NCBI GenBank assembly: GCA_020349905.1
Contig: CP070702.1
Location: forward strand, 1,900,047-1,964,046
Direction of reading: 5' to 3'
Source: Candidatus Eiseniibacteriota bacterium
Lineage (GTDB): Bacteria > Eisenbacteria > RBG-16-71-46 > JAFGJU01
Length of the DNA stretch: 64,000 bases
Part shown: positions 13,684 to 62,603 of the stretch, in pieces
Layout: each line of letters begins with the position of its first letter
How positions within the stretch are numbered: the first letter of the stretch is position 1
The notes under the pieces: generated by a model
Told to the model about the DNA's origin: nothing
The model's database searches: none
What the model saw: only the letters and a program-made list of their open reading frames with translations
Translations under genes and position numbers: made by a program

Positions 13684-13687
13684 GTCG

Positions 13688-15126: not shown

Positions 15127-15192
15127 TCCGTTTCCCCTTTCAGAACGAACCTTCTCACGTTGTCCGACTTGAAGCGGGTATCCATTGTTCCC

Positions 15193-16137: not shown

Positions 16138-16168
16138 TGTCCCTACCAGGTCCGCTTTCTATGCCACA

Positions 16169-17299: not shown

Positions 17300-17333
17300 T
17301 TTCTGATTACCTCCGTATCGCGCGTCACCCGCG

Positions 17334-19184: not shown

Positions 19185-19218
19185 GTTCTTCCCTTTCCCT
19201 GTTCCTTCCTTTCAGCTT

Positions 19219-19641
19219 TCAGCTCTGTCTGCGGCTCTCCTTTTCTCGCTGGCGCTCTATCTGCTTTTCCCTCTTCTTCTCCCTCTTTCTCTGGGCCCGT
19301 TCCTCCTTCTGCTGCTCCTCCAAGTCCTCCACCCTCTGGATCAGTTTCTCCACGTTATCTCTGTTCTCCATGAGAGTGTAGAATCTGTCGTAGCTCTTGA
19401 TGTCGAAGAAGGTTTTCACGAAGGGCTCCAGAAACACCAGGAGTTGACTTCCAAGGAAGCTCAAGGGCTTCGAGGATTCCAGAAAGAATATCGCGGGCAC
19501 GCCGAGACCCATCCGGACCACTCTGTTGGCCACGGCATCGATGAGGGCATCGTCGTCTTTCTCCTCCCCGTTTGCCTCAGGTTCTTCCTTAAGGAACGGC
19601 CGTAACCCTCTATCCACGTTGGGACTCCTTTCCCATTGCAT
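19219..19641 (-). CDS. Small protein with one hydrophobic/amphipathic segment and a highly charged K/R/E-rich coiled-coil C-terminus; start uncertain (possibly ATG 19512)
   Basis: 'GVPAIFFLESSKPLSFLGSQLLVFLEPFV' followed by 'EDLEEQQKEERAQRKREKKREKQIERQREKESRRQS'; sits in operon between membrane gene and GlmL-like gene. Confidence 0.4.
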   Translation of the reverse strand: MQWERSPNVDRGLRPFLKEEPEANGEEKDDDALIDAVANRVVRMGLGVPAIFFLESSKPLSFLGSQLLVFLEPFVKTFFDIKSYDRFYTLMENRDNVEKLIQRVEDLEEQQKEERAQRKREKKREKQIERQREKESRRQS

Positions 19642-20053
19642 GCGTCACGAAATCCACCACCTCGCCCCTGTTCCCCGAGACCAGCAGCCTCATTCCTCTG
19701 TAATGCTCCAGCCAGGAGCGTCTTCTAAACGGACTCAGGCTCACGCCCCCCGAGTCAACCCAGAAGCTCTTGAAGCTACTCCACTCCTTCTTCTGGGTGC
19801 CGAAGAGACCTCTTATCTCCACACCCTTTGAGCTCAACGAATAAGTCGAAGCGAAGAAGTAGTTGTGAAGAGAGCCGACAAGTATCACCACCGAGAGCAG
19901 GGCCAGAAACGGATCGTGCCAAAGAAGGAGCACGATGAGGCCGAAGCCCACAATGACGGCGACGACAAATGTGCATTTTCTGAGGTCCATTGTACACGGT
20001 CTGAGACGCCAGGTCAACGTCAGACGCGGCTCGTCTGTAGGAGTTTCTTCCAT
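19610..20053 (-). CDS. Small membrane protein, two TM helices plus bacterial PH-like (bPH_2/YdbS-like) domain; true start probably ATG ~19990
   Basis: 'FVVAVIVGFGLIVLLLW...LALLSVVILVGSL' twin TM then 'YSLSSKGVEIRGLFGTQKKEWSSFKSFWV' resembling bPH_2. Confidence 0.4.
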   Translation of the reverse strand: MEETPTDEPRLTLTWRLRPCTMDLRKCTFVVAVIVGFGLIVLLLWHDPFLALLSVVILVGSLHNYFFASTYSLSSKGVEIRGLFGTQKKEWSSFKSFWVDSGGVSLSPFRRRSWLEHYRGMRLLVSGNRGEVVDFVTHAMGKESQRG

Positions 20054-31111: not shown

Positions 31112-34100
31112 CTCGAGAGTCTCTGAAGCCTTTCTCTTGCCATGCTTCCCCACTGCGAATTCTCCCCTTCCCTTTCCAGCAGGATCGTGTATTGCTTGGC
31201 CGCGGCCTCCACGTCTCCGGACTGTTCGAACGCCATCCCTGCCTTGAAGCGAGCAGTCACCGCCCACAGAGAGCCTTCTCCATAGAGAAACGGAACCTTC
31301 AGAAACTCCGAAGCCGCCCTCTCGAACTCTCCCATCGCGGCGTGGGCCTCGCCCAGCCAGTACTGAATCTCGGGCTTCTCCTCTCCCTCGGCCGTCTCAA
31401 GCGCCTGCCTCAGTTTCTCGATCGCCCGACGGTGACGTCCAGCGTTCAGGTCGCAGTACCCGCTCTTGAACGCCGCGGCGCGTGCCTGCTCACCCGTGCA
31501 TCCGGTTCGTATCTCCTCATACAGGGAAGCGGCTTCGGACCACTTCTCCGCCCTTTCGAGACAGAGGGCGGAATTTGACCAGGCGTCGCAGCGGCTCGTG
31601 GCGTCGGAGGCCACCCGCGAGGCGTCCAGATAGGAACGAGAGGCCTCCAGGTACCTGGATTGCGCGTAGAGAGACGTACCCAGTTTGAAATGCGCTGTGA
31701 AATTCAGTGTGCTGTCCGAAGAGGCCAGCTTCACGGCCTGCCCGAAATGGGCGGACGCAGCAGCGAAATCGTTCTGCCGCAGCTTGGAGAGCCCCATCGT
31801 AACAAGCGCCTTCTTCCTTGGCTCTCCCCGCAAGCCTCCGAGTGCCTCTGCCAGACGCGCGTGCGCTCCGGCCATATCGCCGGCCTCGTACAGAGCCAGG
31901 CCCCTCTCCAGAGCCAGCTCCGAAGCCAGAGTAGTATCTGAGGGGAAGCTCTTCACGAACTCCCCGAGCCGTTTCTGCGCCTTGGAGTCTTCTCCAAGCT
32001 TGGCAAGGGACAGCACGATCCTGCGCGCCGCCTCCCGATGCGAGGCCTGGCCCCTGGTCAATGCCAGCGCCCGCTCGTAGGCCTCGAGGCTCGAGGAGAA
32101 ATCTCCCGATTCAAAGCTCGCCCGGCCGAAAGAGAGCATTACCGTGGAATCCGAACGCACCTCTGGAAACTGTTTAGCCAGCCCTGCGTAGGTGACGGCG
32201 GCCTTGCCAGACTCTCCGACCCGCGTTTCGACGCCGGCCTTCCTTATGAGAACGTCTCTGAGCAGCGGACTCCCCGGGAACTGCGCGGCGAGACGTTCCA
32301 CGGGAACAGACGCCTCTTTCAGCATTCCTCTGTCCAGATACGCCCTGGCTTCTCGCGCGAGCAGGTCGTCCGCGAACGGACCGGTGGGATCGTGTTTCAG
32401 AATGTACTCGTACTCTGCGACGGCCTTTTCCAGCTCCCCGCTTACCAGATGGCAATCTCCCCTCCGGGAAAGGGCCCTCTCCCTGAGGATTCGTGTTCTG
32501 CCATTCTGGAAGGCAAACGAGTAGAGTGAGATCGCTCTGTCGAGGTCCCTCCTCGCAAGCTTGCACTCTCCGAGCTCGTATGCCGCCTCGGCAGCAGCAG
32601 GGCTCTCTGAGTAACGCGACACGACTATCTCCAGCTCCCGCTCCGCCGCGTCCAGGTTGCCCGCCTTGCGCAACAAGTATCCCCTCCCGAGCCGGGCCCC
32701 GGCCAGCAGCGGGCTGTCAGGGAATTCGTCGATGAGTTTCTGATAGCTGGCCATGGCCTCTGTGTAGAGTTCGTCGCCCGCGGTACCCGACAGCTCAGCC
32801 AGGGCCTGAGCTCTCCGGAGAAGAGCCGCTTCAAACCGGTCGGTGTCAGGGAAGCCCTGCAGAAAATCCGTATACAGAGACACGGCCGCTCTGTGCTTCT
32901 GAGGGGGATTGAGCTCTGAAAGCTCCTCTTCTATGAGTGCCATTCTGGCGTCGTCCGCCAGCTGGGTCCTGCCGTATTGAGTAAGAAGGTCCCTCAGGTA
33001 CCGGAGCGCCAGACCCTTGTGCTTCGCGGCGTCCTTTCTCTCACCCTCGAAGGCAAGCTTCCTCGAGAGCAGATTGTGCACGTTGGCCAGTCTCCAGAGC
33101 AGCAGGTGCTTTCTGTCCGCAGGAGAGCTCAGCATGGCCTTCGTGAGCATGACCTCGGCCTCGTCGAAGGAACGCAGCCTGCTCTCGAAGAGGATCGCCG
33201 CTTGCTCGAGCAGCCTTTCGCCGGCCACAGAGCCCTCGGCCGCGGACATCAGAAGAACTCGCAGCCTCTGCAAGTCCTCCTTTCCCACCTTCGCGGGAAA
33301 GAGCATTTCTAGGAGGCTTGCTCGCTCCGCGGCCTCGTCCGCTCTTGGACTCAGAGGGAAATCGCGCGCCAGCCTACGGTAGGCCCCCGCGGCCTCGGAG
33401 TACTCGCCGAGGGTTTCGTGAGACCTGGCCAGCTCCCAGACAGCCGGCTCCACACTTTCCGATTCCGGATAGAGGTCAGCAAGCAAGGTGTAATAGGCCG
33501 CGGCCCGTCCTCTCCCAACTGTCTCCTCTGTGCGGGCCTCGGCTCCGGAGAGACGGGCCAGCCGCATGAGGGCAGTGGCGCGGAGCTCGTCCGGACCGGG
33601 CAGTGTCAGCGCCCGCAAATAGGCAGCCACGGCCCCTTCCCTGTCCTCGAGCTCCTCTCTCACCATACCTTCTTCGATACTCACGAAGAGACAAAGGGAA
33701 TCCGCACGCCCGACACACTGTATCTTCTCGAGAAAACCTAGCGCGTCCCTGAGCGCATTCCGAAAGCGCGCGGCACGCGCGCGCGTAAAAAGAGAGGCAC
33801 GCTGCGCCGCCTCCGTGGCCCCTCTCGAAAGCAACTTCTCCGCCAGCAGGTTCGCCTGGCCGTACTCCCCCGCTGCAAGAAACGCGGACTGGGCTCTCAG
33901 ATTGCACTCTTCCGAAAGGAGAGAATCGGGAGACAACCGAGCGCATTCGGAGTAGGCCACCGCCGCGTCTGCGGTTCGCCCCATGCTGTCAAGCAGGCGC
34001 GCCTTCTCAACCAGGGCCTCGCTCAGGAGCTCCTTTCCAACTTTGAACGACAACGCCTCGTCTAGCACGCCCAGAGACCCGAGAGTGTTCCCCTCGGCCT

Positions 34101-34764
34101 GGAGCAGGCGGGCCAGCTCCACGGACCCCCTGAAGGCGGCTTCGCTACCGCGATGAGCCTTGCGCAGGAGTTCAAACGTGCTCCTGGCCCTGACCGCATC
34201 CGTTCGGGTGAGCGTGGAACCCAGAAGATACAGCAGCTCCGCTTTCCACTCGTCATCCGCGCAGAGAGCCAGTCCTCTTTCGAACTCCTTGGCCGCCTGC
34301 ACCGGGTCACCGCGCTCCACGAAGCTGAGACCCACGTTGCGAAGAGCCGCACAGAATCGCGGGCACTCCGGGAAGCGTGCCACGACCTGGGAGAAGGTCG
34401 AACCTGCCTCCCTGTGACGACCCAGTTTCACCTCGCATCCGCCGGCCCTGTACAGGGCCTCGCAGGCCCTTTCGCCGCGCGGGTCGGCCTCGTAGGCCCG
34501 AAAGTAGAGCCGTTCAGCTTCCGCGAACTGCGAAAGGGAACTCCTTATGTCTCCCAGAAGAAGAGTGGCGTGCTGGCGAGACTGCGGAGAGACGTCGCCC
34601 TCCAGGAACCTCTGCAGTTCCTCCTGGGCAGGTTGGAGCATCCCGTCTTCGATCAACTTCTCGGCGTAGTCCAGCTCCCGGGGACCCGAAGGAGTCGCTG
34701 ACTGTGGACCATACACTATTGCTGCAATCGCAATACTAACAATCAATAGTGCGCGTTTCTTCAT
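31108..34764 (-). CDS. Very large (1218 aa) secreted/periplasmic tetratricopeptide-repeat protein
   Basis: Signal peptide '[19 protein letters not shown]'; TPR-like 34-aa units along the whole length (A/L/Y/G/E periodicity). Confidence 0.8.
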
Positions 34765-45906: not shown

Positions 45907-45939
45907 CGTGTTGATTCTAGACGTGAAAGAAGGAGGAAT

Positions 45940-47859
45940 ATGTCGAGGGGGATCCTGACTGCCCTTTTTTTTGCAGCGTTCGCGCTCTCTACGTCGGTCT
46001 CTCTGTCCCTTCCTGCCGGCGGGCAGCCCATCGGCGCTACGGCAGGCGATCCCCTTTCCGAAGAAGTGCTCACCTCCCGGGCAGAGTTGAGACTTAACAA
46101 CGGAATTCCGTCTCTTCCCCCTGACGCTCACGCCTACTACAAGCTGGGAATCGAGGAAAGGAAGCTCGGTAACTCCTCGAGAGCCATCCTGGCATTTCGC
46201 GCCGCTTCGGAGTCCGACCCCTACTTTCTGGACCCGCACTTCTCCCTGTTCAGGGCGTTCCTCTTTCGTGACCCGGGGCAGGCCATGGCCGAGCTCTCTG
46301 CTGCTGCTCGAATAGTGCGGCGTGACTTCGTGGCCCAGTACTTCTTCCTCAAGAACACGGCCGTCATGGGGTGGATTGCTCTGCTCATGTCCGTGGCGCT
46401 TCTGACAGCGTCTGCATGTTTGAGGCACGTAACAAGGCTAAAGCACGCGCTCTCCGAGCGCCTCGCACTCCAGATTCCCTCCAGGGCGGCGGGCGTGCTC
46501 GCATTTCTGGCTATTCTTCAGCCGTTCCTCTGGGGCCTGGGCGTTGCGGGAACGGTGCTCTGTTACAGCGGCGCTCTGTGGAGATGCCTCAGCAGGAGAG
46601 AGAGGTTCTTCGCGGTGACACTTCTTCTCCTGGCAGTGACCACCCCCTTCGTTTCGGGCGCGGTGGCTTCCAGGTTTCCTCCGTTGGACGGGGGCTCCCC
46701 CACGCTCATTTCGTACATGGCTCTGCACAGGGGATGGAGCGATGAACTCGAGAGGTCGCTGCGCGAGTCCCTCGAAGCCGCGCCTGAAGAGGCCGCTTAC
46801 CGCTTCGCTTACGGAACCATGGCGCGAAGAGCAGGCAAACTCGGGATTGCCAGAAAGGAGCTGGCGGCTGCCGTCGAGCTCTCGCCGGAGGACGCCATCT
46901 ATCTCAACAACCTGGGGAACGTCTATTTCAACCTGGGTGACCTGAACAGCGCTGAGGAGCTGTACGACAAGGCTACCCGGCTGAGACCCTCCCTGCCTGA
47001 ACCTCATTACAATCTGGCCCAGGTGTTCACGAAGAGGATGGCCTTTGAGAGGGCAAACGAAGAACTGGAACGTGCCAACAGCATAGATTCGGAACTCATA
47101 AGCGAGTTCTCCATGAACAGCCGGGAACAACTCAACCGAAGTGTTATCGACGCTTCTGTCTCCCCGCGCCGCTTCTGGAGAAGCCTGGCCCACGAAGGAA
47201 AGGACGCGACCTCGGCCGATGTATTGATGAGCGCCTCCGGGTACATCGGCATAGGCACACCCGAGAGGAGTGCCATCATCGTCGTCTTGTTCGCCGTGTG
47301 TGTCGTAAGCGGCTTCATGGTCTTCAGGAACTTCTACACATACAGATGCAGCAACTGCGGCAAGGTGGTTTGCAGAAAATGCCTGAAGCGAGTGCACCGC
47401 ACCATCTTCTGTGAGGCGTGCGGCTCCACGGCCGGCTCTCTGAAGTCAGAGGAATTCGCCAAGCTCCTCTTCACGAAGCAACTGAAGGCGGAGGCCAGAA
47501 AGACTCTGCCGGTGTCGTTGCCTTTGCGCCTGCTCTTTCCGGGTTTCGCGCTGGCCGAAAGAGGCGATTCCGTGAGGGGTTTTCTCCTGCTCCTCTGGAC
47601 CTCGGTAGCAGCCGTTTATCTCTGGGGACAAGGATATCTCTTCAACTATGTGCCTTCGCTGCACTATCAGCAGGAGTACGTTTTGAGGTACATCGTGATA
47701 GTGGCTCCTCTGCTCTTGTTACACGTGTTGGTGTTGGCTCACATTTCGCGTCAGTCGGCCTCGGCGCCAATGTCACTGAGAGTGTTGAAAGCCGAGGCGG
47801 ACAGGAAACGGGTGAAAGATGGCATTGCAGGGAAGCCTGGAAGACTTCAGTCTGGCTGA
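45940..47859 (+). CDS. Membrane protein with TPR repeats and a CxxC...CxxC zinc-ribbon between TM segments
   Basis: Signal/TM 'ILTALFFAAFALSTSVSL'; TPR-like 'AYYKLGIEERKLGNSSRAILAFRAASESDP', 'YLNNLGNVYFNLGDLNSAEELYDKA'; 'YRCSNCGKVVCRKCLKRVHRTIFCEACGS'; multiple TM. Confidence 0.65.
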   Translation: MSRGILTALFFAAFALSTSVSLSLPAGGQPIGATAGDPLSEEVLTSRAELRLNNGIPSLPPDAHAYYKLGIEERKLGNSSRAILAFRAASESDPYFLDPHFSLFRAFLFRDPGQAMAELSAAARIVRRDFVAQYFFLKNTAVMGWIALLMSVALLTASACLRHVTRLKHALSERLALQIPSRAAGVLAFLAILQPFLWGLGVAGTVLCYSGALWRCLSRRERFFAVTLLLLAVTTPFVSGAVASRFPPLDGGSPTLISYMALHRGWSDELERSLRESLEAAPEEAAYRFAYGTMARRAGKLGIARKELAAAVELSPEDAIYLNNLGNVYFNLGDLNSAEELYDKATRLRPSLPEPHYNLAQVFTKRMAFERANEELERANSIDSELISEFSMNSREQLNRSVIDASVSPRRFWRSLAHEGKDATSADVLMSASGYIGIGTPERSAIIVVLFAVCVVSGFMVFRNFYTYRCSNCGKVVCRKCLKRVHRTIFCEACGSTAGSLKSEEFAKLLFTKQLKAEARKTLPVSLPLRLLFPGFALAERGDSVRGFLLLLWTSVAAVYLWGQGYLFNYVPSLHYQQEYVLRYIVIVAPLLLLHVLVLAHISRQSASAPMSLRVLKAEADRKRVKDGIAGKPGRLQSG

Positions 47860-48907
47860 GATACTCCAGCTCATCGCCCTTCAGAAGAAGTCTGGCGTCC
47901 TGAGGCTGACTTCTCCGGAGGCCAGCGCCGTGCTTTTCTTCGAGAGGGGCGTTGTTGTCTCCCTGACTGACAGGCGCGAGAGAAAGAGCGATCCACTTCT
48001 GGAATACCTGCACGGCACAAACAGGCTCACGACGGAGCAGGTCGAACAGATTTACGCCATCCGAGCACAGAGCAAGAAGGAGTTCGCCGAGGTAATAATC
48101 ACCGGCGGATATCTTACGTCCAAGCAGCTTGCCCAGGCCGTGGAGCTGCACGCCAGAGAGCTGCTTCCCAAGCTGCTCAGCTGGAAGAAGGGAGTCTACC
48201 ATTTCTCCGGCGACGAGAAGACCGTTGCCCGGCTTTACTTCAAGGTGCCCATGAGAACCGAGGCACTCTTGATGGAGAGCATGAGGAGGATCGACGAGAG
48301 CGACCGAATCAAACAGCTCTATTCCCCTGCCGCCGTACTCAGACGCAGGGAACCCACCGAGAAACTGGAGCTGGCCGACGAGGAGAAATGGGTGCTGGGT
48401 CTCATAGACGGCAGTCGGCCCATCCGTGAGATACTCGGGAAGTCAAGACTCGGAGAGTTCGAAACCTACGAGATTCTGAGCGACCTGATACAGGCCGGAG
48501 CTGCCGAAGTCGCCCAGTGGACCTCCGATGGCGAACCAGAGGCGGAGCCGGCGGTTCCCGTCCGCAAGACTTCGGGACTGGCTCCCATTCTGGGCATAGG
48601 CGTGGCAGTCATCCTCATCGCGGGAGCCTCGTTCGGCATAAGGTGGGTCCTGAAGACGCTTGGCGAAGGGCCTGCAGTCTCGCGTGCCACGGCCACTCTC
48701 CGCGTCGAAGCGAGCAGAGAGGAGAACATACGGTTCGCGGCCGAGGTCTTCAGAGCCGCCCAGGGCTCGTACCCAGAGGAGCTGTCAGAGCTGGTGGCCC
48801 GCGGCCTCCTGGCTGACAGAGACATCGAAGGCTTCAGCTACTCGAGGCTCAGTGACGGCTTCGAGCTCCACAGGCGGCAGGGACCCCAATCCCGAGTGTC
48901 TCCGTGA
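47819..48907 (+). CDS. DUF4388-domain protein with C-terminal TM segment
   Basis: N-terminus 'MALQGSLEDFSLAEILQLIALQKKSGVLRL' is the hallmark DUF4388 motif; TM 'LAPILGIGVAVILIAGASFGI'; overlaps the upstream gene by 41 nt. Confidence 0.65.
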   Translation: MALQGSLEDFSLAEILQLIALQKKSGVLRLTSPEASAVLFFERGVVVSLTDRRERKSDPLLEYLHGTNRLTTEQVEQIYAIRAQSKKEFAEVIITGGYLTSKQLAQAVELHARELLPKLLSWKKGVYHFSGDEKTVARLYFKVPMRTEALLMESMRRIDESDRIKQLYSPAAVLRRREPTEKLELADEEKWVLGLIDGSRPIREILGKSRLGEFETYEILSDLIQAGAAEVAQWTSDGEPEAEPAVPVRKTSGLAPILGIGVAVILIAGASFGIRWVLKTLGEGPAVSRATATLRVEASREENIRFAAEVFRAAQGSYPEELSELVARGLLADRDIEGFSYSRLSDGFELHRRQGPQSRVSP

Positions 48908-48938: not shown

Positions 48939-49907
48939 TTATCTACCTGTCACAGAGGGATAATCAAGCGCAAACCTTCTCGAGTAATACACCCGCGACA
49001 GCCCCAGCAACGCCAAAACCACCACAAGGAACAAGGGGTGAAGAACTCCCACAAGCAGGACGAAGACCGCAGAACTGCACCGGTACGCGACCCTTACCGA
49101 GCGAGGGTCCACTCTGAGTGAAGCAAACGCAAAGAAGGGCAAGGCAAGAAGAGAACCAGCGGCAGCGATTCGATTCTCGACCACAAGCGCCACGGGCAGG
49201 GCCAGGGCGACGAGACAGAGCGCCAGAAGTGTTCCCCCTCGAAGAGTCAGAACGACACCGGCCGACCTGAAGCCGCTCTTCGCGTCACCCTCCTTGTCCG
49301 CCAGGGCAGTGAGGACGAAGACCGCTCCCACGCACAGGGCGTAGGGCATCGCTCTCCAGACGTCAGGCTGAGCGCCCTGCCCCTTCACCACGACCCATCC
49401 CGCGGAGTAGGCCAGTATGCCGTACCCTATCGCGTTGGCCACAAGGTCAAAGGGGAAACGTCTCTTAAGAGCGATCGGCGGAACCGAGTAGAGGAGTCCC
49501 AGCACCAGCGAGAGGATGAAATAGAGAGGCAGCCTCCCCCCTATCACCAGGGCACCTACGACGGCGTGCACCGCGAGGACGATGGACGCCGTGACGGCTT
49601 CTCTCCTCTTCACGATCCCCTTGGGCAACAGAAACAGCTTGTCGTTGGCCCTGTCGGTCTCGATGTCTGATATCTGGTTGACGACGTAGACGGAGCCCAT
49701 CAGCATGGCGTAGAAGACGGCGGCAATCACGAACGGGCCTTGCCCCTGCTCCACTCCTTCGCGGGCGTCGTAGTGACCCAGGAGAAAGAACGTCACCGCG
49801 GGCACCAGCACCAGCGGCCTGAGGAGAAAGAATCGGTCAGCCACGGTCAGGAGGATTCGCTTCATTACTCCGGCACCTGGGTCAGCCTGTGAGTTCGCCG
49901 CGCGCAC
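48939..49907 (-). CDS. UbiA-family prenyltransferase
   Basis: 'NQISDIETDRAND' Asp-rich motif in a polytopic membrane protein. Confidence 0.7.
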   Translation of the reverse strand: MRAANSQADPGAGVMKRILLTVADRFFLLRPLVLVPAVTFFLLGHYDAREGVEQGQGPFVIAAVFYAMLMGSVYVVNQISDIETDRANDKLFLLPKGIVKRREAVTASIVLAVHAVVGALVIGGRLPLYFILSLVLGLLYSVPPIALKRRFPFDLVANAIGYGILAYSAGWVVVKGQGAQPDVWRAMPYALCVGAVFVLTALADKEGDAKSGFRSAGVVLTLRGGTLLALCLVALALPVALVVENRIAAAGSLLALPFFAFASLRVDPRSVRVAYRCSSAVFVLLVGVLHPLFLVVVLALLGLSRVYYSRRFALDYPSVTGR

Positions 49908-49916
49908 GGGTCGAAC

Positions 49917-50501
49917 TCAGCGTGTTCGCTCATCTCCGCATCTCTGTTTCAGTATCCACTCGATGGCCTGTGTCGAGTTCTCGCACACCTTGTCCGCAAA
50001 GCCCAGAACCTCGTCCCCGTCCTTCTCCAGCTCCCCGCTCCCGAAGCCAGTCCGCACGAAAACCGTCGAAGTTCCGGCCGCCTTGCCGGCCTGCAAGTCG
50101 GTCAGCTTGTCACCGACCATGAAGCTGCGAGAGAGGTCGATGTCCAGCTCTTCGGCGGCCCTGAGAAGAAGTCCCGGTCTGGGCTTCCGGCAATCGCACT
50201 CCACGTCGTAGTCCGGGTGATGTACGCAGTAATAGACCGCATCCAGCGAAGCGTCCTGCGCGGCAAGAAGCTGTCTTAGTCGCTCGTTCACTGCCTCGAT
50301 ATCCTCGACAGTGAAGAGTCCCCTCGCCACGCCTGCCTGGTTCGATACGACGACCACGGGCACGCCCAGTCTGTTGAGGTGCGCGATCGAGGAGGCGACA
50401 TTCCCCAGCAGCTTGACCTTCGCAGGGTCCGAGATGTAGCCTGTCTCTTCGATAATCGTTCCGTCACGGTCAAGAAAGATCGCCCAGTCTGCCCTGCTCA
50501 A
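49917..50501 (-). CDS. gmhB: D-glycero-D-manno-heptose 1,7-bisphosphate 7-phosphatase (HAD-IIIA)
   Basis: 'AIFLDRDGTI' DxDGT motif, 'VVVSNQAG', 'CDCRKPRPG', 'FMVGDKLTDLQAG'. Confidence 0.8.
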   Translation of the reverse strand: MSRADWAIFLDRDGTIIEETGYISDPAKVKLLGNVASSIAHLNRLGVPVVVVSNQAGVARGLFTVEDIEAVNERLRQLLAAQDASLDAVYYCVHHPDYDVECDCRKPRPGLLLRAAEELDIDLSRSFMVGDKLTDLQAGKAAGTSTVFVRTGFGSGELEKDGDEVLGFADKVCENSTQAIEWILKQRCGDERTR

Positions 50502-52738
50502 TCGTCTCCTCCTTCTGTCTTTTTCAGGCTGCCTTCACTGTCGCCGCTCCGGCTCAGCTCCATGGCGGCGCGGTAGACGTCCTCGACTCCGATGCGGCCC
50601 AGGCACTCGAGCTCGTAGGGACATGTCTTGCGAAAACACGGCGAGCAAGACAACTTGTCGTACAAGACCCGTACCGCCTTGCCCCGCGGTGCGGTCCAGT
50701 AAGGATCCGAGGAGCCAAAGACGACCACAACGGGGCACCCAGACGCCGCTGCGACGTGGACGGCCCCCGAGTCGTTCCCGACAAAGACAGCGCCCCGCGA
50801 TGCCACGGCGGCCAGCTCGCGAAGACCCGTCTTCCCGGAGAGGTCCACCACCGGAGCATCCGACCTTTCAGCGATTTCCCGGCAGAGCTCTCTCTCCACC
50901 CGGCTGCCCACCAGAACAGCCTGAAACCCCCCTCCACTGCAAAGCATCCCCGCGAGGCGAGCGAAGTTCTCGGCCGGCCACCTCTTGGTCTCGCCATACG
51001 TGGCGCCGGGCGCAAGAAGAACCACCGAAGCCGATTCCCCCACGCCTGCATCTCTGAGCAGTTGCCGCGCGCGCCCGAGCTCCCCGGCCGAGAAAAACAG
51101 GCGAGGCCCCCGGGGCACAATGCATCCGGCCGGAACAAGCTGCGCATACTGTTCACACAGGTGACTCCATCTCTGGCGCTCCAGGCAGACGGCAAGCATC
51201 CTGTCTCTGAGTTCTCCCCCGAACCCAACGATCTTCTTCACCCCGCCCAGCCGGAGCATGACCGCAGAGGAAAACGAGTCGGGCATGGCAACTCCCGCCT
51301 CGCAGTGGTTTCTCCTCAACGTCACGGCCCCACTGATGACACCGGCAACCCCCCCGCGACGGAGGCGCACCAACTTCCCCGCGACCTTACTCTGTTCCAG
51401 GATGCCGACCACACGCTCGTGGGCCACCACAACCAGTTCCCCTCCACGCATACACTCCTTCAAGGCTTCCAGCGACGGGCAAGCCATCACAGCATCTCCC
51501 ACCCAGTTCGGGGCGCGGACTGCGAGGGAGCCAGGATGCGGAGCGCTCCACGCCCGGGGGCTCGCACCCCCTCGTTCTCCTCCGAGTACGAAGCGAGGCA
51601 ACTGGAGCCGCCGGTGGGACGCGAGGTCGGCCGCTCTTGGCTCGCTCAGAATCCGCTGCACCTCCTCTGCCACCAGCGCCACGTCTATCGATTCCATGCA
51701 ACGCATGTCGCCCTCGTTGCAGGAATCCTTACCGTGGACGTCGCACGGTTTGCAGTCGAAGGAATTGGATATCACGCTGGAGCAGGAATCCGGCGGATAG
51801 AATCCGAACTCCGGCACCGTCGAGCCGAACAGCGCCACGACCGGTGTGCCCACGGCGTGAGCCACGTGCATGAGACCGGAATCATTAGAAACCACGCAGT
51901 CGCAGCGCGCCAGCAGTGCAGCTGAGCTCCGTAGCCCTCCTACGTGGAACCTCACGCCTTCGAGTCTCTCACACGACTTCTCGACGTCCTGAAGAACCGC
52001 CGCGTCCACTTCTCCCCCAACAACGCACACGTCGAGGTCCCTTTCGCGAAGCTCCTGGGCCAGAAGCCCGAAGCGCTCCGCGCTCCAGATCTTCGTTTTC
52101 CACTTGGCTCCGGGACACAACCCCACGAGGGGCCGCCTTCCCTGCCCGGGAAGAAGAGCTAAGAACTCCTCTGCCAGGTTCTTCTCTTCATCTGCCAGAA
52201 ACATCCGGGGCCTTGAGGCGGGTACCGGGCCGCACGCCCTTTCGGCGGCGCGCAAGAAGCGTTGGACGGAATGCCTGACCCGCCGGGGGCGATACCTCTT
52301 GAACCGAACCATGGCGTGTCTGGCAACGGCGTCTCTGTCACCGGTCTTGCGGTCCCCGGATGGCGCCAGACGGCAGACCAAGGCTGTGCGGGGAGTGGAC
52401 TGCAGGTCCAGAACGACGTCGAACTTTCTCGACCTCACCTCAGCAGCAGTCGCAAAGATACCGCTCACCGAGTCCACCCCACGAGGAGGGTAGGAAAGGA
52501 CCTCGTTCACAGCGGGATTATGCTTGAAAACGTCGGCAAAAACGTTCCTGGTGAGGAACGTAATCCTGGCCTCGGGAATGGCTTCCTTGACCGCGAGGGG
52601 TACGGAAGAGGCCAGAACCACGTCTCCCAGTGAGCTCAATCGGATCACCAAGATTTTCGGGGAAGAATCCGGCTTCACTGGACCGCCTGGATGTGCCCGG
52701 GACCGGGTAGAAGTGAACGCGGAGTGACGAACCGTCAC
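50498..52738 (-). CDS. Fused tandem GT9 heptosyltransferases (WaaC-like + WaaF-like); GTG start overlapping msbA stop
   Basis: Domain 1 'KILVIRLSSLGDVVLASSVPLAVKE'; domain 2 'AVRAPNWVGDAVMACPSLEALKE...MPDSFSSAVMLRLGG'; 746 aa. Confidence 0.8.
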   Translation of the reverse strand: MTVRHSAFTSTRSRAHPGGPVKPDSSPKILVIRLSSLGDVVLASSVPLAVKEAIPEARITFLTRNVFADVFKHNPAVNEVLSYPPRGVDSVSGIFATAAEVRSRKFDVVLDLQSTPRTALVCRLAPSGDRKTGDRDAVARHAMVRFKRYRPRRVRHSVQRFLRAAERACGPVPASRPRMFLADEEKNLAEEFLALLPGQGRRPLVGLCPGAKWKTKIWSAERFGLLAQELRERDLDVCVVGGEVDAAVLQDVEKSCERLEGVRFHVGGLRSSAALLARCDCVVSNDSGLMHVAHAVGTPVVALFGSTVPEFGFYPPDSCSSVISNSFDCKPCDVHGKDSCNEGDMRCMESIDVALVAEEVQRILSEPRAADLASHRRLQLPRFVLGGERGGASPRAWSAPHPGSLAVRAPNWVGDAVMACPSLEALKECMRGGELVVVAHERVVGILEQSKVAGKLVRLRRGGVAGVISGAVTLRRNHCEAGVAMPDSFSSAVMLRLGGVKKIVGFGGELRDRMLAVCLERQRWSHLCEQYAQLVPAGCIVPRGPRLFFSAGELGRARQLLRDAGVGESASVVLLAPGATYGETKRWPAENFARLAGMLCSGGGFQAVLVGSRVERELCREIAERSDAPVVDLSGKTGLRELAAVASRGAVFVGNDSGAVHVAAASGCPVVVVFGSSDPYWTAPRGKAVRVLYDKLSCSPCFRKTCPYELECLGRIGVEDVYRAAMELSRSGDSEGSLKKTEGGDD

Positions 52739-59519: not shown

Positions 59520-60665
59520 TCAAGACCCCACGGCCGGCAGCATGCTCAGAGCCAGAGCAGCGGCCCTCTGTGAAGCCCCCGGCCGTCCAAGGGAGCTCTC
59601 TACCAGGGCCAGACTTGCGATAAGCTCCCGTCTCTTCTCTTCGTCGAAGACCAGCTCTCCCAGTTCCTCCGAGATCCTCGACGGGTCGATGTCGTTCTGA
59701 AGATACTCAGAAACTATCTTCTTCCCGGCAACAATGTTCACCAGGCCTATTGTGTCAATCGCCACCAGTCTCCTGGCGATCGCCCACGAAAGAGGAGACA
59801 CACGATAGACGATTACCATCGGAGTCCCCAGAATCGCTGCTTCCAGCGTGGCGGAACCCGATGCGATGACGGCCGCGCTAGAGACGTAGAGCAACTCAGA
59901 ACTTCTCCCCTCCAGGACGCGCACCGGCAGATCTAGCTTGGCTATCATCTTCTTTATCTCGCTCGACAGGGCACCGTCGGCCGCGCACACGGCCAGCTCC
60001 ACCGACCGCTTCTCACTCAATTTGACGCCCGCGGCAAGCATGCTGGGCAGAAGCCTGCGCACCTCCTGCCGCCTGCTTCCGGGCAGAAGGGCCACCACCG
60101 GAAGCTCGGACGAAAGGCCCAGCCTTCGTCGCACCTCCGCCTTCTCTCCTTCGACGCGCACCGATTCCAGGAGAGGGTGCCCCACAAATTCTACCTCCAG
60201 TCCGTGGCCCCGAAAGAAATCCACCTCGAACGGAAACACGACCGCTATTCTGTCAATGTTCGACGCCATGAACTTGACTCTGCCCTGGCCCCACGCCCAC
60301 ACCTGGGGAGCGATGTAGTACATCACCGGAATGCCCAGGCGTTTCGCGTACCTGCAAAGTCTGAGATTAAAGCCGGGAAAATCGACGGCAATAAGTAGTT
60401 GTGGGCGCTCATGTTTCATCAGTTTCTTCAACTTCCACATGAGGCCTATGAACGAATGCAGTTTCGAGATCACCTCTGTGAATCCCATCACTCCCATGTG
60501 CTCCAGCGAGACCACCATGGTGGTCCCTGCCTCGCGCATCCTGGGACCCCCCACCCCCAGCACCTCAAGGTCCGGGGCCTTGTCTCTCAACGCACGCACC
60601 AGCCTGGAGGCGTGAAGGTCACCGGAAGGCTCCCCGGCCACCACCAGGACTTTTCGTCGATTCAC
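59520..60665 (-). CDS. lpxB: Lipid-A-disaccharide synthase
   Basis: 'KVLVVAGEPSGDLHASRLVRAL' canonical LpxB N-terminus; start set to GTG 60665 overlapping the upstream TGA (GTGA); the longer ORF to 60911 is an unsupported extension. Confidence 0.85.
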   Translation of the reverse strand: MNRRKVLVVAGEPSGDLHASRLVRALRDKAPDLEVLGVGGPRMREAGTTMVVSLEHMGVMGFTEVISKLHSFIGLMWKLKKLMKHERPQLLIAVDFPGFNLRLCRYAKRLGIPVMYYIAPQVWAWGQGRVKFMASNIDRIAVVFPFEVDFFRGHGLEVEFVGHPLLESVRVEGEKAEVRRRLGLSSELPVVALLPGSRRQEVRRLLPSMLAAGVKLSEKRSVELAVCAADGALSSEIKKMIAKLDLPVRVLEGRSSELLYVSSAAVIASGSATLEAAILGTPMVIVYRVSPLSWAIARRLVAIDTIGLVNIVAGKKIVSEYLQNDIDPSRISEELGELVFDEEKRRELIASLALVESSLGRPGASQRAAALALSMLPAVGS

Positions 60666-61693
60666 CTCGGCTGATCTCCCACCGGCGGCTCCTCCGTCTG
60701 GAAGGAGAGAGCTTCGATTCCCTCTCTGATCTTCTCGCTGACTCTCAGAGCTGCCTCCATGGCCCGCAGTCCCGCCGTTCCGTCCACGGGCGGCTTCTCC
60801 CCGGTCAGGGCGCATCTGACGAAACACTCCATCTCCAGCCTCAGGGGTTCCTCCCCTCCGGCAGTAATCTTCCGCCTGACGATGCCAGGAGCAATCTCCG
60901 TCTCTTCCCACCCCGCGGCCCCGTTTTCGGACCTGACCGGGGCGCCCTTTCTATAGACCTCTGCCTTGCCTGCCAGGCAATCGATGGAGATGTAGGAATC
61001 TCGTCCAAAGAACCTTATCTTCCGCAGTCTCTCCTTGGATACCCTGCTCGCGGTCAGATTGGCGACCGCGCCGTTCTCGAAGAGAATTCGAGCGTTCGCG
61101 ATGTCCACGTTGGAGGACAGAATAGGGACTCCCGTCGCCTCCACCGAACGAACGTCGCTGTGCACGGTGGCCAGGACCAGGTCGATATCATGTATCATCA
61201 GGTCCAGGATGACGTCCACGTCGGTGCTGCGCCCCAAGAAGGCGGAGAGCCTGTGTCCCTCTATGAAGAGCGGCTGGCGTATCAGAGACAGAGAGGCCTG
61301 CACCACCGGATTGAAGCGTTCCACGTGCCCGGTCTGGACAATCACGGAGTGTCTTTCGGAGAGCTCGATCAGGGCTCGCGCCTCTTCGACGGTTGCAGTC
61401 AGCGGCTTTTCCACCAGGACGTGGATGCCAGAGGACACACATTCGGAAGCAACCGCGAAATGCGCCGTGGTGGGAACGGCCACAGTGACAGCGTCTGCCG
61501 CGGAAATCATCTCCCGGAGGGACGAGAAGGCCCTGGTGTCCGTCTCTTCTGCGACCTTCCTGCCAACGTCGGGATTCTTGTCGTAAACTCCGACGAGCTC
61601 CGCCTGTCCCAGCGAGGCGACCACACGAGCGTGCTGCCTGCCGAGGTGACCTACCCCAGCCACACCTACTCTCAGCCGTCCTGATTCACTCAC
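60662..61693 (-). CDS. Gfo/Idh/MocA-family NAD-dependent oxidoreductase embedded in the lpx cluster (GnnA-like candidate)
   Basis: Rossmann N-terminus 'RVGVAGVGHLGRQHARV', 'EKPLTATVEEARALIE' family signature. Confidence 0.8.
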   Translation of the reverse strand: MSESGRLRVGVAGVGHLGRQHARVVASLGQAELVGVYDKNPDVGRKVAEETDTRAFSSLREMISAADAVTVAVPTTAHFAVASECVSSGIHVLVEKPLTATVEEARALIELSERHSVIVQTGHVERFNPVVQASLSLIRQPLFIEGHRLSAFLGRSTDVDVILDLMIHDIDLVLATVHSDVRSVEATGVPILSSNVDIANARILFENGAVANLTASRVSKERLRKIRFFGRDSYISIDCLAGKAEVYRKGAPVRSENGAAGWEETEIAPGIVRRKITAGGEEPLRLEMECFVRCALTGEKPPVDGTAGLRAMEAALRVSEKIREGIEALSFQTEEPPVGDQPR

Positions 61694-61829
61694 GTTCTAC
61701 CACTCCTTGAGTCATTCGCGTTGTCTCAGCTGGAACAAGAGGCCGGCGGCACCTGTCCTGCAACACGGCCTCTAATCGACATCTGAATCATCCGTCAGCG
61801 GAGAAGAAAGGTCTACGGGATGATATCGC

Positions 61830-62603
61830 TCAGCTGGAGATTCCCCTGTCGGACTGACGGACGAAATCCAGGAAATGCTCCACCTCGGGAAAGGGGTGCA
61901 GTTCAGACGTGGCTCTCTCGACCGCCTGACTGGTGTTCAGACCTGACCTGTAGAAGAGGCGGTGCAGTCTCTTCAGCTCGAGCCTGACATCTGGGGGAAA
62001 TCCACGCCTCAGCAATCCGACCGAGTTGAGCCCCACCACTCTGAGAGGGTTGCCGGCGGCCCTTACATACGGCGGAACGTCCTTCGGGACCCTGGAACCC
62101 CCGCCTATGAAGGCGTGCCGTCCTATCTTCACGAACTGGTGCACCGGGGTCACGCCTCCGACTATGGCGTTGTCATCGATGACGACGTGGCCCGCGAGGT
62201 TTACCGCGTTGGCCAGGATGACGTTGTCCCCGATTATGCAGTTGTGGGCCACGTGTACGTATGCCATGAGAAGATTGTCGTTTCCGATCCTGGTCTCCTC
62301 TCCCTCGTTAGTGGCCCTGTTTATCGTGACGAACTCGCGGATCGTGTTTGAGTCGCCTATGTCAACGAGGCTGGGAGCGCCGCGGTATTTAAGGTCCTGG
62401 GGTGGAGTACCCACGACCGCGTGGTGGAGGATACGACAGTTTCTTCCTATTCTGATGGGACCTTCCACGACCACGCCACTTCCCAGGACGGTCCCGGAGC
62501 TCAGCTCTGCCCGCCCTGAGATGACGCAGTAAGGGCCCACGATCACGTCTTCTGCTATTGTTGCCTCAGGATCCACGACGGCGGTGGGGTGAACTTGAGG
62601 CAT
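61830..62603 (-). CDS. lpxA: Acyl-ACP--UDP-N-acetylglucosamine O-acyltransferase
   Basis: Left-handed beta-helix hexapeptide repeats, 'IHPTAVVDPEATI', 257 aa. Confidence 0.9.
   Translation of the reverse strand: MPQVHPTAVVDPEATIAEDVIVGPYCVISGRAELSSGTVLGSGVVVEGPIRIGRNCRILHHAVVGTPPQDLKYRGAPSLVDIGDSNTIREFVTINRATNEGEETRIGNDNLLMAYVHVAHNCIIGDNVILANAVNLAGHVVIDDNAIVGGVTPVHQFVKIGRHAFIGGGSRVPKDVPPYVRAAGNPLRVVGLNSVGLLRRGFPPDVRLELKRLHRLFYRSGLNTSQAVERATSELHPFPEVEHFLDFVRQSDRGISS

What the first reader, a model, noticed from the sequence alone, without database searches (positions are those of the whole stretch)
45940..48907. Plus-strand pair: TPR plus zinc-ribbon polytopic membrane protein overlapping a DUF4388 protein
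The first protein has periplasmic-looking TPRs, several TM helices and a cytoplasmic CxxC-x13-CxxC ribbon. The second starts with the diagnostic DUF4388 motif 'GSLEDFSLAEILQLI' and ends in a TM helix. The genes overlap by 41 nt. They are the only plus-strand coding island in the second half of the window, divergent from asnS. This could be a membrane signalling or scaffold pair.
Basis: partly seen in the sequence, partly recalled or inferred. Interest (0 to 1): 0.5.

Follow-up and report, generated by a model that had tools for sequence, protein, structure and literature searches.

The report
Conserved PATAN and TPR–zinc-finger membrane pair
Two overlapping genes in an uncultured Eisenbacteria genome encode an always-paired, undescribed membrane module: one protein has TPR repeats outside and a six-cysteine finger inside, the other joins a pilus-motor-binding PATAN domain to a pilin-like domain, and a sister lineage adds the polarity GTPase MglA.

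Summary
P1 (45940-47859, 639 aa) and P2 (47819-48907, 362 aa) overlap by 41 nt. They are the only plus-strand genes in the second half of the window and lie divergent from asnS.

P1 is a polytopic membrane protein. It has periplasmic TPRs and an invariant cytoplasmic C-x2-C-x4-C-x2-C-x9-C-x2-C finger, not CxxC-x13-CxxC.

P2 is PATAN/DUF4388 (98.5 bits). It carries an MshEN-like alpha-clip, a winged helix, one TM helix and then about 80 periplasmic residues with a GspG/pseudopilin-like fold, so it does not end in the TM helix.

The pair is adjacent in 35 of 35 testable species genomes, in the window's six close relatives and in three divergent relatives. The junction ranges from a 41-nt overlap to a 12-nt gap. 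P1-like proteins form at least 67 clusters at 50% identity, all metagenomic and annotated only as TPR protein.

In a sister clade the operon is TPR-MglA-P1-P2 (MglA in 45 of 46 loci, P2 in 29 of 29).

Best reading: an inner-membrane scaffold linking PATAN/MglA-type polarity or type-IV-filament regulation to the periplasm. The pairing is shown; the function is inferred. A rival LPS/envelope role rests on synteny alone. I rate it a new variant of a known kind.

The parts
45931..45936 (+). Shine-Dalgarno AGGAGG, 3 nt upstream of the P1 ATG
   Evidence: Read directly from the sequence.
45940..47859 (+). P1 gene: 639-aa polytopic inner-membrane protein with TPRs and a six-Cys finger
   Evidence: ORF. 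GC3 is 0.71, like the neighbouring genes. It is 100% identical to an NCBI Ca. Eiseniibacteriota protein annotated 'tetratricopeptide repeat protein'. AF2 model has pLDDT 80.9 and pTM 0.74.
45940..46020 (+). P1 N-terminal signal peptide or anchor (aa 1-27)
   Evidence: Hydrophobic stretch at aa 4-26 after R3. Conserved in orthologs, with A-x-A-like ends.
46060..46323 (+). P1 N-terminal periplasmic TPR-like helical domain (aa 41-128)
   Evidence: Helices 41-128 in the model. Sub-threshold TPR hit at aa 63-94.
46327..46674 (+). P1 first membrane block (aa 130-245): TM1, a short helical hairpin (181-212, with P195 nearly invariant) and TM4
   Evidence: Hydropathy and K/R-rich short loops at 161-182 and 214-222. 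Model helices. Conservation.
46444..46458 (+). H169-x3-E173 motif on the cytoplasmic extension of TM1, a candidate metal-ligand pair
   Evidence: H169 is present in 68 of 68 sequences. Position 173 is E, H or D in 67 of 68 across a family with 20% mean identity. The ligand role is an inference.
46699..47247 (+). P1 central periplasmic TPR domain (aa 254-436)
47260..47325 (+). P1 TM5 (aa 441-462)
   Evidence: Strongest hydropathy peak, 2.76. Model helix 441-462.
47347..47421 (+). P1 cytoplasmic six-cysteine finger, C470-x2-C-x4-C-x2-C-x9-C-x2-C494
   Evidence: All six Cys are invariant in 68 of 68 sequences. Four short beta-strands at 467-490 in the model. Best profile hits are the FGD5 FYVE domain (E 0.0028) and the CesA RING finger, matching Cys pairs 2-4 only. 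Pfam B-box and FYVE hits are sub-threshold.
47449..47760 (+). P1 C-terminal block (aa 504-607): long basic helix, conserved P534-G535 motif, two TM helices
   Evidence: Model helices 504-532, 534-540, 544-562 and 580-607. G535 is invariant (68 of 68) and P534 is present in 67 of 68. No Pfam family matches.
47819..47859 (+). 41-nt P1/P2 overlap (dual coding)
   Evidence: The same 41-nt overlap occurs in L001, L007 and L008.
47819..48907 (+). P2 gene: 362-aa bitopic PATAN protein
   Evidence: ORF. 100% identical to an NCBI 'DUF4388 domain-containing protein'. AF2 model has pLDDT 83.5.
47819..48319 (+). P2 PATAN/DUF4388 domain (aa 1-167)
   Evidence: PF14332, E 3.6e-28, aa 4-161.
47990..48178 (+). 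Alpha-clip insertion in PATAN (aa 58-120): two MshEN/GSPII-like helical hairpins
48335..48514 (+). P2 winged-helix-like module (aa 173-232)
48584..48661 (+). P2 transmembrane helix (aa 256-281)
   Evidence: Hydropathy 2.33. Model helix 256-281. No prepilin-peptidase site in 0 of 53 sequences.
48683..48874 (+). P2 periplasmic pseudopilin (GspG)-like domain (aa 289-352)

Best explanation
P1 and P2 are the two subunits of one conserved, co-translated inner-membrane complex.

Architecture (shown):
- P1 contributes a periplasmic TPR superhelix, a helical membrane core and a cytoplasmic six-cysteine zinc finger.
- P2 contributes a cytoplasmic PATAN domain with an MshEN/GspE-N-like alpha-clip, plus a winged helix.
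- P2 also has one TM helix and an uncleaved periplasmic pseudopilin-like head.

Proposed mechanism (inferred):
- The complex is a transmembrane scaffold or adaptor.
- In the cytoplasm, the PATAN module engages a PilB/GspE-type ATPase or platform protein, as PATAN does in Synechocystis.
- The P1 zinc finger provides a docking site. In the sister clade the likely partners are the co-encoded MglA GTPase and a soluble TPR protein.
- In the periplasm, the P1 TPRs hold the P2 pilin-like head or an envelope partner.
- Cytoplasmic polarity or motor regulation is thereby tied to a fixed envelope position or to the state of a type-IV-filament machine.

Shown here: domain architecture, topology logic, obligate pairing and the MglA operon in the sister clade. 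Inferred: physical complex formation, zinc binding and the type-IV-filament target.
For: Pairing:
- P2 lies directly downstream of every complete six-Cys P1 in 35 of 35 testable GTDB species loci.
- The same holds in L001-L006, in divergent P0024/25/26 and in 29 of 29 sister-clade loci.
- Junctions range from a 41-nt overlap to a 12-nt gap.

P2 architecture:
- PF14332 at 98.5 bits.
- The tail matches GspG/EpsG.

P1 conservation:
- Six Cys, H169 and G535 are invariant, and P534 is nearly so, across 68 sequences of 20% mean identity.

Link to polarity and pili:
- A bona fide MglA (E 2.6e-68 to M. xanthus MglA) sits directly upstream of P1 in 45 of 46 sister-clade loci, preceded by a soluble TPR protein.
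- MglA acts through the TPR protein SgmX to recruit PilB, and PATAN proteins co-occur with SgmX (PMC11580455).
- MglA/MglB-PATAN neighbourhoods are already known (PMC4316618).
Against: - No pil, gsp or mglA gene lies in the annotated parts of the 64-kb window, and no mglA lies in the window or the Eisenbacteria loci.
- In Eisenbacteria the conserved neighbours are envelope and LPS genes instead.
- I did not establish whether these genomes encode a type IV pilus or a T2SS at all.
- No P1-P2 complex prediction could be run.
- The P1 TPRs are predicted to be periplasmic, so they cannot be the MglA-binding TPRs.
Confidence: 0.45

Rival explanations
1. The pair is an envelope or LPS-biogenesis regulator. 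It would be functionally analogous to LapB/YciM (membrane anchor plus TPRs plus a zinc-binding Cys motif) and would coordinate lipid A/core synthesis or transport with the periplasm.
For: - In Eisenbacteria the pair always lies between asnS/ExbB-ExbD-TonB and a minus-strand block of UbiA, GmhB-like phosphatase, GT9 heptosyltransferases, an MsbA-like ABC transporter and LpxK.
- That block continues to genes I read as lpxB and lpxA from their translations alone, without a family search.
- The arrangement persists at 38% P2 identity.
- In L075 a UbiA gene follows P2 on the same strand.
Against: - The synteny is confined to one phylum-level lineage and includes asnS, so it may be inherited gene order rather than a functional link.
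- The sister clade has quite different neighbours: MglA, TPR, cNMP-binding, M48 peptidase and an adenylate cyclase.
- Neither protein hits a LapB model in NCBIfam.
- The LapB domain layout is recalled from memory, not tested here. Its TPRs and rubredoxin are both cytoplasmic, whereas P1's TPRs are predicted to be periplasmic.
- Nothing about PATAN links it to LPS.
Confidence: 0.2
2. P2 is a membrane-anchored c-di-GMP receptor. Its MshEN-like alpha-clip binds c-di-GMP, and with P1 it controls a secretion or exopolysaccharide process in response to the second messenger.
For: - 46 of 53 family members hit the NCBIfam c-di-GMP_motif model (best E 1.9e-7), and 39 of 53 hit the c-di-GMP-activated glycosyltransferase NfrB.
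- The two repeats are separated by a 5-residue spacer, as I recall for MshEN (and my own reading).
Against: - The window protein scores 16.6 bits against a cutoff of 38.
- By the MshEN motif as I recall it, the first position (Arg) is P59/E88 and the third (Gly) is K-or-L61/T-or-A90 in both repeats. Gln24 is kept only in repeat II of the major clade.
- The alpha-clip is a generic feature of PATAN domains, for which no c-di-GMP binding is reported in the papers read.
Confidence: 0.12
3. The two genes are unrelated neighbours, and the overlap is an annotation or start-codon artefact.
For: Nothing beyond the weak Shine-Dalgarno sequence upstream of P2.
Against: - Adjacency is complete in every testable locus across lineages with P1 identity down to about 20-25%.
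- The P2 N-terminus is conserved from residue 1.
- Junctions are always 12 nt or less apart.
Confidence: 0.02

Closest known systems
PATAN (PatA N-terminal, DUF4388/PF14332) domain proteins such as Synechocystis PixE/PixG/PilG and Anabaena PatA
   Same: P2 has a full-length PATAN domain above the Pfam threshold, including the two-repeat alpha-clip insertion. PATAN proteins localise to the inner membrane and act by protein-protein contact with PilB and PilC.
   Different: - P2 has no receiver domain, so it is not a PatA-type response regulator.
- It is an integral membrane protein, with a winged helix, a TM helix and a periplasmic pilin-like domain.
- It is obligately paired with a polytopic TPR/zinc-finger protein, a partner absent from the PATAN papers I read.
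MglA polarity module with TPR effectors (M. xanthus MglA-SgmX-FrzS-SopA; MglA/MglB-PATAN neighbourhoods)
   Same: A sister clade encodes TPR-MglA-P1-P2 in one operon. This combines the same kinds of component (MglA, TPR protein, PATAN protein) that co-occur in M. xanthus and recruit PilB.
   Different: - The window's lineage has no mglA within 64 kb.
- No MglB/roadblock gene appeared among the sister-clade genes I annotated.
- The sister-clade MglA carries a C-terminal extension of about 200 aa.
- P1 has no counterpart in the M. xanthus network.
GspG/EpsG/PulG major pseudopilins of the type II secretion system
   Different: - There is no prepilin-peptidase site or Glu5 (0 of 53).
- The helix is preceded by a 250-aa cytoplasmic module rather than a short leader, so it cannot be processed or polymerise like a pilin.
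- The head is truncated.
- The window protein does not reach any family threshold.
MshEN / GSPII N-terminal domains of MshE, PilF, PilB and XpsE ATPases
   Different: It is inserted into a PATAN domain rather than placed at the N-terminus of an ATPase. It scores below the family cutoff, and the key Arg and Gly positions of the c-di-GMP motif are replaced.
LapB (YciM)
   Same: As a general parts list it resembles P1: a membrane-anchored TPR protein with a C-terminal Cys-rich metal site, and a genomic association with LPS genes. The LapB architecture is recalled from memory.
   Different: - No sequence match.
- P1 is polytopic, with TPRs predicted periplasmic.
- P1 has six Cys in a FYVE/RING-like spacing rather than a four-Cys rubredoxin.
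- P1 is always paired with a PATAN protein.
FYVE / CesA-RING cross-brace zinc fingers
   Same: The spacing C-x2-C-G-x3-C-x2-C...C-x2-C is that of Cys pairs 2-4 of these fingers. The best PDB profile hits are FGD5 FYVE (E 0.0028) and cellulose synthase.
   Different: The first Cys pair is absent. The hits are sub-threshold. The setting, between TM helices of a bacterial membrane protein, is unrelated.

Membership tests
PATAN / DUF4388 (PF14332) | Match to the Pfam model above the gathering score | tested here: met
   98.5 bits against a cutoff of 25, E 3.6e-28, covering aa 4-161 and profile positions 1-121 of 122.
PATAN / DUF4388 (PF14332) | Alpha-helical (alpha-clip) insertion of two helical hairpins | tested here: met
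PatA-type response regulator | C-terminal CheY-like receiver domain after PATAN | tested here: not met
   No Response_reg hit in Pfam or NCBIfam. The C-terminal half is winged helix, TM helix and pilin-like domain.
MshEN c-di-GMP-binding domain | Score above the NCBIfam NF053729 cutoff | tested here: not met
   The window protein scores 16.6 bits against a cutoff of 38. 46 of 53 relatives match at E up to 1, with best E 1.9e-7.
MshEN c-di-GMP-binding domain | Conserved Arg1, Gly3 and Gln24 of the 24-residue motifs (motif recalled from memory of Wang et al. 2016) | tested here: not met
   Repeat I has P59, K/L61 and E/R82. Repeat II has E88, T/A90 and Q/H111. The hydrophobic positions are kept. 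Binding itself cannot be tested here.
Type II secretion major pseudopilin GspG (PF08334 / TIGR01710) | Prepilin-peptidase site (G/FTLxE) at the start of the hydrophobic helix | tested here: not met
   Present in 0 of 53 family members and 0 of 24 tails. The helix is internal, after 250 cytoplasmic residues.
Type II secretion major pseudopilin GspG (PF08334 / TIGR01710) | Sequence match to the family model | tested here: inconclusive
   The window tail has no Pfam hit. 2 of 24 relatives hit T2SSG, best E 9.1e-5. The profile's best PDB hit is GspG at E 0.061. One relative hits TIGR01710 at E 0.16.
Type II secretion major pseudopilin GspG (PF08334 / TIGR01710) | Pilin fold: long N-terminal helix packed on a beta-sheet | tested here: met
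TPR repeat proteins | TPR models above threshold | tested here: met
Zinc ribbon / B-box / FYVE fingers | Match above the family threshold and a full ligand set | tested here: not met
   All Pfam zinc-finger hits are sub-threshold, 12-18 bits against cutoffs of 24-34. Only six Cys are present, equivalent to pairs 2-4 of FYVE/RING. Metal binding cannot be tested here.
LapB / YciM | Sequence match, with a single N-terminal anchor and cytoplasmic TPRs plus rubredoxin | tested here: not met
   No LapB model appears among the NCBIfam hits at E up to 1. P1 has about 7-8 membrane helices, and its TPRs are predicted to be periplasmic.
MglA-associated operon | An mglA gene adjacent to the pair | tested here: not met
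   tblastn finds no MglA in the window or L001-L075. The feature is met only in the sister clade, in 45 of 46 loci.

The most novel reading that the evidence does not exclude
The pair is a previously undescribed transmembrane relay. An uncleaved pseudopilin-like domain, held by periplasmic TPRs, senses or docks to a type-IV-filament machine or another envelope structure. The signal passes through a single TM helix to a PATAN/winged-helix module and a membrane-stapled zinc finger, which in turn recruit MglA and/or a PilB/GspE-type ATPase. If so, it would be a dedicated inner-membrane receptor for the bacterial MglA/PATAN polarity system. It would also be the first case of a pilin fold used as a fixed signalling domain rather than a filament subunit.
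Probability: 0.2. Interest if true: 0.75.

Novelty: new variant of a known kind. Interest (0 to 1): 0.55.

Why it matters
PATAN domains are widespread, but a mechanism is known only for cyanobacterial response regulators. How MglA-type polarity GTPases connect to the membrane and envelope outside Myxococcus is also unclear.

This locus defines an obligate two-protein membrane module, found so far only in uncultured lineages. It fuses a PATAN domain to a TM helix and a pilin-like periplasmic domain, and pairs it with an unannotated polytopic TPR/six-Cys protein. A sister lineage adds MglA and a soluble TPR protein.

That gives three practical gains:
- A concrete, testable candidate for a membrane anchor or receptor of PATAN/MglA signalling.
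- A new protein family (the P1 membrane and zinc module has no Pfam model) with clear invariant residues to mutate.
- An example of a pilin fold apparently repurposed as a non-polymerising domain.

If the pair instead serves LPS or envelope biogenesis, it would be a new regulator class in a phylum with no cultured members.

Tried and rejected
- **Exact look-up of the window's P2** found nothing on record. I obtained contexts from homologs instead.
- **The AFDB Foldseek library** was unavailable.
- **Pfam scans of the isolated P2 tail, the P2 winged-helix region and the P1 N- and C-terminal blocks** gave no family above threshold.
- **The third word-index search, using the TPR-free P1 C-terminal profile,** returned only seven fragments.
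- **Cluster look-up of ten diverse P1-like representatives** gave no organism names, only 'TPR repeat protein'.
I repeated it with one subclade.
- **A search for pil, gsp or mglA genes in the window** found none.
- **Promoter and terminator scans around the pair** were uninformative: no promoter-like sites, and terminator-like sites at or below chance.
- **L056** looked like a six-Cys-less family member but is an ordinary soluble TPR protein.
- **An anti-sigma (ZAS) reading of the zinc motif** was rejected: no sigma factor gene is adjacent in any context, and the motif is not N-terminal.
- **A GT-C glycosyltransferase or O-antigen-ligase-with-TPR reading of P1** was rejected: there are too few TM helices and no matching Pfam or NCBIfam model.
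Full report
**1. Observation**

P1 is 45940-47859 (639 aa, ATG) and P2 is 47819-48907 (362 aa, ATG). They overlap by 41 nt.

P1 has an AGGAGG box three bases upstream of its ATG. P2 has only a weak purine-rich stretch upstream, as expected for a translationally coupled downstream gene.

Both ORFs have the high third-position GC (0.71-0.74) of the neighbouring real genes. The other plus-strand ORFs in the second half of the window are low-GC3 antisense shadows of minus-strand genes. The last doubtful one (61035-61586) lies inside a 343-aa minus-strand gene. The 'only plus-strand island, divergent from asnS' statement therefore holds.

Both proteins are 100% identical to NCBI proteins from a Candidatus Eiseniibacteriota MAG (2.69-Mb contig). 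They are annotated there only as 'tetratricopeptide repeat protein' and 'DUF4388 domain-containing protein'.

**2. P1 anatomy**

Pfam finds only TPRs, at aa 290-390 (about 50 bits, above threshold).

Hydropathy and the AlphaFold2 model (pLDDT 80.9, pTM 0.74) give this layout:
- an N-terminal signal peptide or anchor
- a helical TPR-like domain (aa 41-128)
- a membrane block (aa 130-245) of TM1, a short helical hairpin and TM4
- the canonical TPR domain (aa 254-436)
- TM5 (aa 441-462)
- a small four-stranded cysteine module (aa 467-490)
- a long basic helix
- a conserved P534-G535 turn and two more TM helices

The short loops 161-182, 214-222, 463-524 and the C-terminal tail are rich in K/R. 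That places them, and the cysteine module, in the cytoplasm, and places both TPR regions in the periplasm.

The cysteine motif is C470-x2-C473-x4-C478-x2-C481-x9-C491-x2-C494, not CxxC-x13-CxxC. All six cysteines are invariant in every alignment, including a 68-sequence set with 20% mean identity.

A TPR-free profile of this module finds the FYVE domain of FGD5 (E 0.0028) and the RING-like finger of plant cellulose synthase as its best PDB matches. The alignment covers Cys pairs 2-4 of those cross-brace fingers. All Pfam zinc-finger hits are below threshold.

In a cross-brace finger the middle pair needs two further ligands. The only other invariant ligand-type residue in the family is H169. 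Position 173 is E, H or D in 67 of 68 sequences. This H-x3-[E/H/D] pair sits on the cytoplasmic extension of TM1. I infer, but could not test, that it completes a second zinc site and staples the finger to the membrane core.

**3. P2 anatomy**

PF14332 (DUF4388, now PatA_N/PATAN) matches aa 4-161 at 98.5 bits. The model (pLDDT 83.5) shows four parts.

- *PATAN domain with a helical insertion (aa 59-120).*
  - This agrees with the published description of the PATAN 'alpha-clip' as related to the N1 region of T2SS and T4P ATPases.
- *A winged-helix-like module (aa 173-232).* It has many wHTH hits.
- *A TM helix (aa 256-281).*
- *A confidently modelled periplasmic domain.* It is a long helix (289-315) followed by a beta-hairpin (339-352).

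So P2 does not 'end in a TM helix'.

The periplasmic part resembles a type II secretion pseudopilin:
- A profile of the TM-plus-tail segment has GspG (5wda) as its best PDB hit. The alignment runs through the hydrophobic helix and the 'ALxxY...YP' loop (E 0.061).
- Two of 24 relatives hit Pfam T2SSG on their own (best E 9.1e-5).
- The Schekmanbacteria-labelled relative even carries a 'DAWGG...Y...DGY.L.S.G.D' ending.

There is no prepilin-peptidase site in any of 53 family members. The helix also follows 250 cytoplasmic residues. This is therefore a pilin-like fold used as a fixed domain, not a pilin. Support is consistent but modest.

**4. c-di-GMP question**

Of 53 P2 family members, 46 hit the NCBIfam MshE-related c-di-GMP motif model (best E 1.9e-7). 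39 hit the c-di-GMP-activated NfrB.

The window protein is well below the cutoff (16.6 against 38 bits). By the motif as I recall it, the Arg and Gly positions are replaced in both repeats. Membership of the c-di-GMP-binding family is therefore not met. Binding remains open.

**5. Is the pair conserved?** Yes, without exception where it can be tested.

- Close relatives (L001-L006, P2 identity 38-75%) have the same P1-P2 arrangement in the same neighbourhood.
- A scan of one genome per GTDB species with the P1 alignment gave 39 loci with P1 relatives.
  - In all 35 with a complete six-Cys P1 and enough downstream DNA, a P2 relative follows directly on the same strand.
  - These include loci labelled Krumholzibacteriia and Schekmanbacteria, and unclassified bacteria.
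  - The 29 TPR-only hits have neither the cysteines nor a P2.
- The three most divergent P1 relatives from the first search are also followed by a PatA_N gene.
- Junctions range from a 41-nt overlap to a 12-nt gap. The 41-nt overlap is a feature of the window's own clade only.
- All listed P2 orthologs begin MALQG, which fixes the start codon.

An exhaustive profile search showed that 67 of the best 150 representatives (50%-identity clusters) are full-length P1-like proteins carrying the six-Cys motif. The family is much larger than the first search suggested. A sample of ten clusters carried no names other than 'TPR repeat protein'.

**6. Functional context**

In Eisenbacteria the pair sits in a long minus-strand envelope region.
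- Upstream: a MacB/FtsX-type ABC system, an HlyD-family adaptor, a TolC-like OEP, Yip1, TonB-ExbD-ExbD-ExbB and asnS.
- Downstream: UbiA, a GmhB-like phosphatase, a fused double heptosyltransferase, an MsbA-like transporter and LpxK.
- Further downstream are genes I read as lpxB and lpxA from their translations, without a family search.

No pilus, secretion or mglA gene is present in the parts of the window I annotated. tblastn finds no mglA in the window or in L001-L075.

One divergent locus (L076) has a gene overlapping the P1 start that is an MglA GTPase. It scores E 2.6e-68 to M. xanthus MglA and carries a C-terminal extension of about 200 aa.

A metagenome scan with that subclade gave 52 loci:
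- MglA lies directly upstream of P1 in 45 of 46 testable cases. The one exception is L077, which belongs to another clade.
- P2 lies downstream in 29 of 29.
- A soluble TPR protein of about 350 aa precedes mglA. cNMP-binding and CHASE2-cyclase genes are nearby.
- P2 in this clade keeps the TM helix and the same periplasmic 'EV[FY]-x7-YP...GLLP' core at identical spacing, but lacks the beta-sheet.

**7. Literature**

- PATAN is the output domain of cyanobacterial PatA-type regulators. It localises to the inner membrane and binds the PilB1 N-terminal region and the PilC N-terminal domain. PATAN proteins of other architectures are widespread and mostly unstudied (bioRxiv 10.1101/2021.06.11.447907).
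- In M. xanthus, MglA recruits the TPR protein SgmX, which brings PilB to the pilus base. Two uncharacterised PATAN proteins co-occur with SgmX (PMC11580455).
- MglA and MglB genes are occasionally found next to PATAN genes (PMC4316618, citing Makarova et al. 2006).
- None of the papers I read mentions a polytopic TPR/zinc-finger partner or a PATAN-TM-pilin-like architecture. DUF4388 occurs in only five papers of the library.

**8. Interpretation**

The best-supported statement is structural. P1 and P2 form a conserved, co-translated, two-protein inner-membrane module with matched periplasmic parts (TPR; pilin-like head) and cytoplasmic parts (zinc finger; PATAN plus winged helix).

The most likely function is a membrane scaffold or relay of the PATAN/MglA type, acting on a type-IV-filament ATPase or platform (confidence about 0.45). 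Three lines support it: the known behaviour of PATAN, the GspE/PilB-N-like alpha-clip, and the MglA-TPR-P1-P2 operon in the sister clade.

Against it, the window's lineage shows no pilus or mglA genes nearby, and its conserved neighbours are LPS and envelope genes. That supports a rival envelope-biogenesis role (about 0.2), although the synteny also includes asnS and is lost outside the lineage. A c-di-GMP-receptor role (about 0.12) is suggested by fold but not by motif residues. Coincidental adjacency is excluded.

**9. Novelty and verdict**

The domains are known kinds: PATAN, TPR, pilin fold and cysteine finger. The MglA-PATAN association is also known. The following appear undescribed:
- the obligate P1-P2 pairing
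- the PATAN-winged-helix-TM-pseudopilin-like architecture
- the P1 membrane/six-Cys family, which has no Pfam model
- the four-gene MglA version

I classify the finding as a new variant of a known kind, of moderate interest (0.55). The pairing is solid and gives testable residues and partners. The function is inferred, and no cultured organism is known to carry the pair.

Noticed in passing
window 13048-20053 (minus strand): A run of eight genes, mostly without annotation. Products of 211, 273, 206, 376, 140 and 147 aa have no Pfam hit. The other two are a DUF6754 protein (E 7e-113) and a 616-aa PF13941 'MutL' actin-like ATPase (E 5e-127). It may be a conserved unknown operon.
   Followed up: no
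L076:3812-5041 and the equivalent genes in L078-L127: The sister-clade MglA proteins (about 380-410 aa) carry a C-terminal extension of about 200 aa: a Pro/Ala/Lys-rich linker plus a small conserved C-terminal domain. Canonical MglA lacks this. No MglB/roadblock gene appeared among the sister-clade genes I annotated.
   Followed up: partly
window 47819-47859: The conserved P1 C-terminal tail 'DGxxGKxxRLQSG' in the window's clade is encoded by the same nucleotides as the invariant P2 N-terminus 'MALQGSLEDFSLAE'. Its conservation is probably a dual-coding side effect, and it is absent in clades without the overlap.
   Followed up: partly
window 50498-52738 (minus strand): A 746-aa protein made of two fused GT9 heptosyltransferase domains. 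In the more distant L005 these are separate genes of 342 and 352 aa.
   Followed up: no
window 59520-62603 (minus strand): A 343-aa oxidoreductase-like gene (60662-61693, Rossmann-type N-terminus) lies between genes I read as lpxB and lpxA. From memory, this arrangement recalls GnnA-type genes for GlcN3N-containing lipid A. None of the three gene identities was tested here.
   Followed up: no
window 31108-34764 (minus strand): A 1218-aa protein with a YfiO/BamD-like N-terminus followed by about 1000 aa of TPRs. It lies upstream of a MacB/FtsX-ABC-HlyD-TolC block.
   Followed up: no
L075:13008-13937: In this divergent lineage a UbiA-family prenyltransferase gene follows P2 on the same strand after 52 nt. 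In the window and close relatives UbiA is convergent on the opposite strand (48939-49907). UbiA is the most persistent neighbour of the pair apart from asnS.
   Followed up: partly
L012, L018, L019, L031, L034 (record titles): Several contigs carrying Eisenbacteria-type P1-P2 pairs, at 31-34% identity to the window's P1 and in the same range as Eisenbacteria-labelled loci, are labelled Hyphomicrobiales, Dormiibacterota, Omnitrophota, Binatia or Acidobacteriota. This probably reflects MAG binning or labelling errors rather than true breadth.
   Followed up: no
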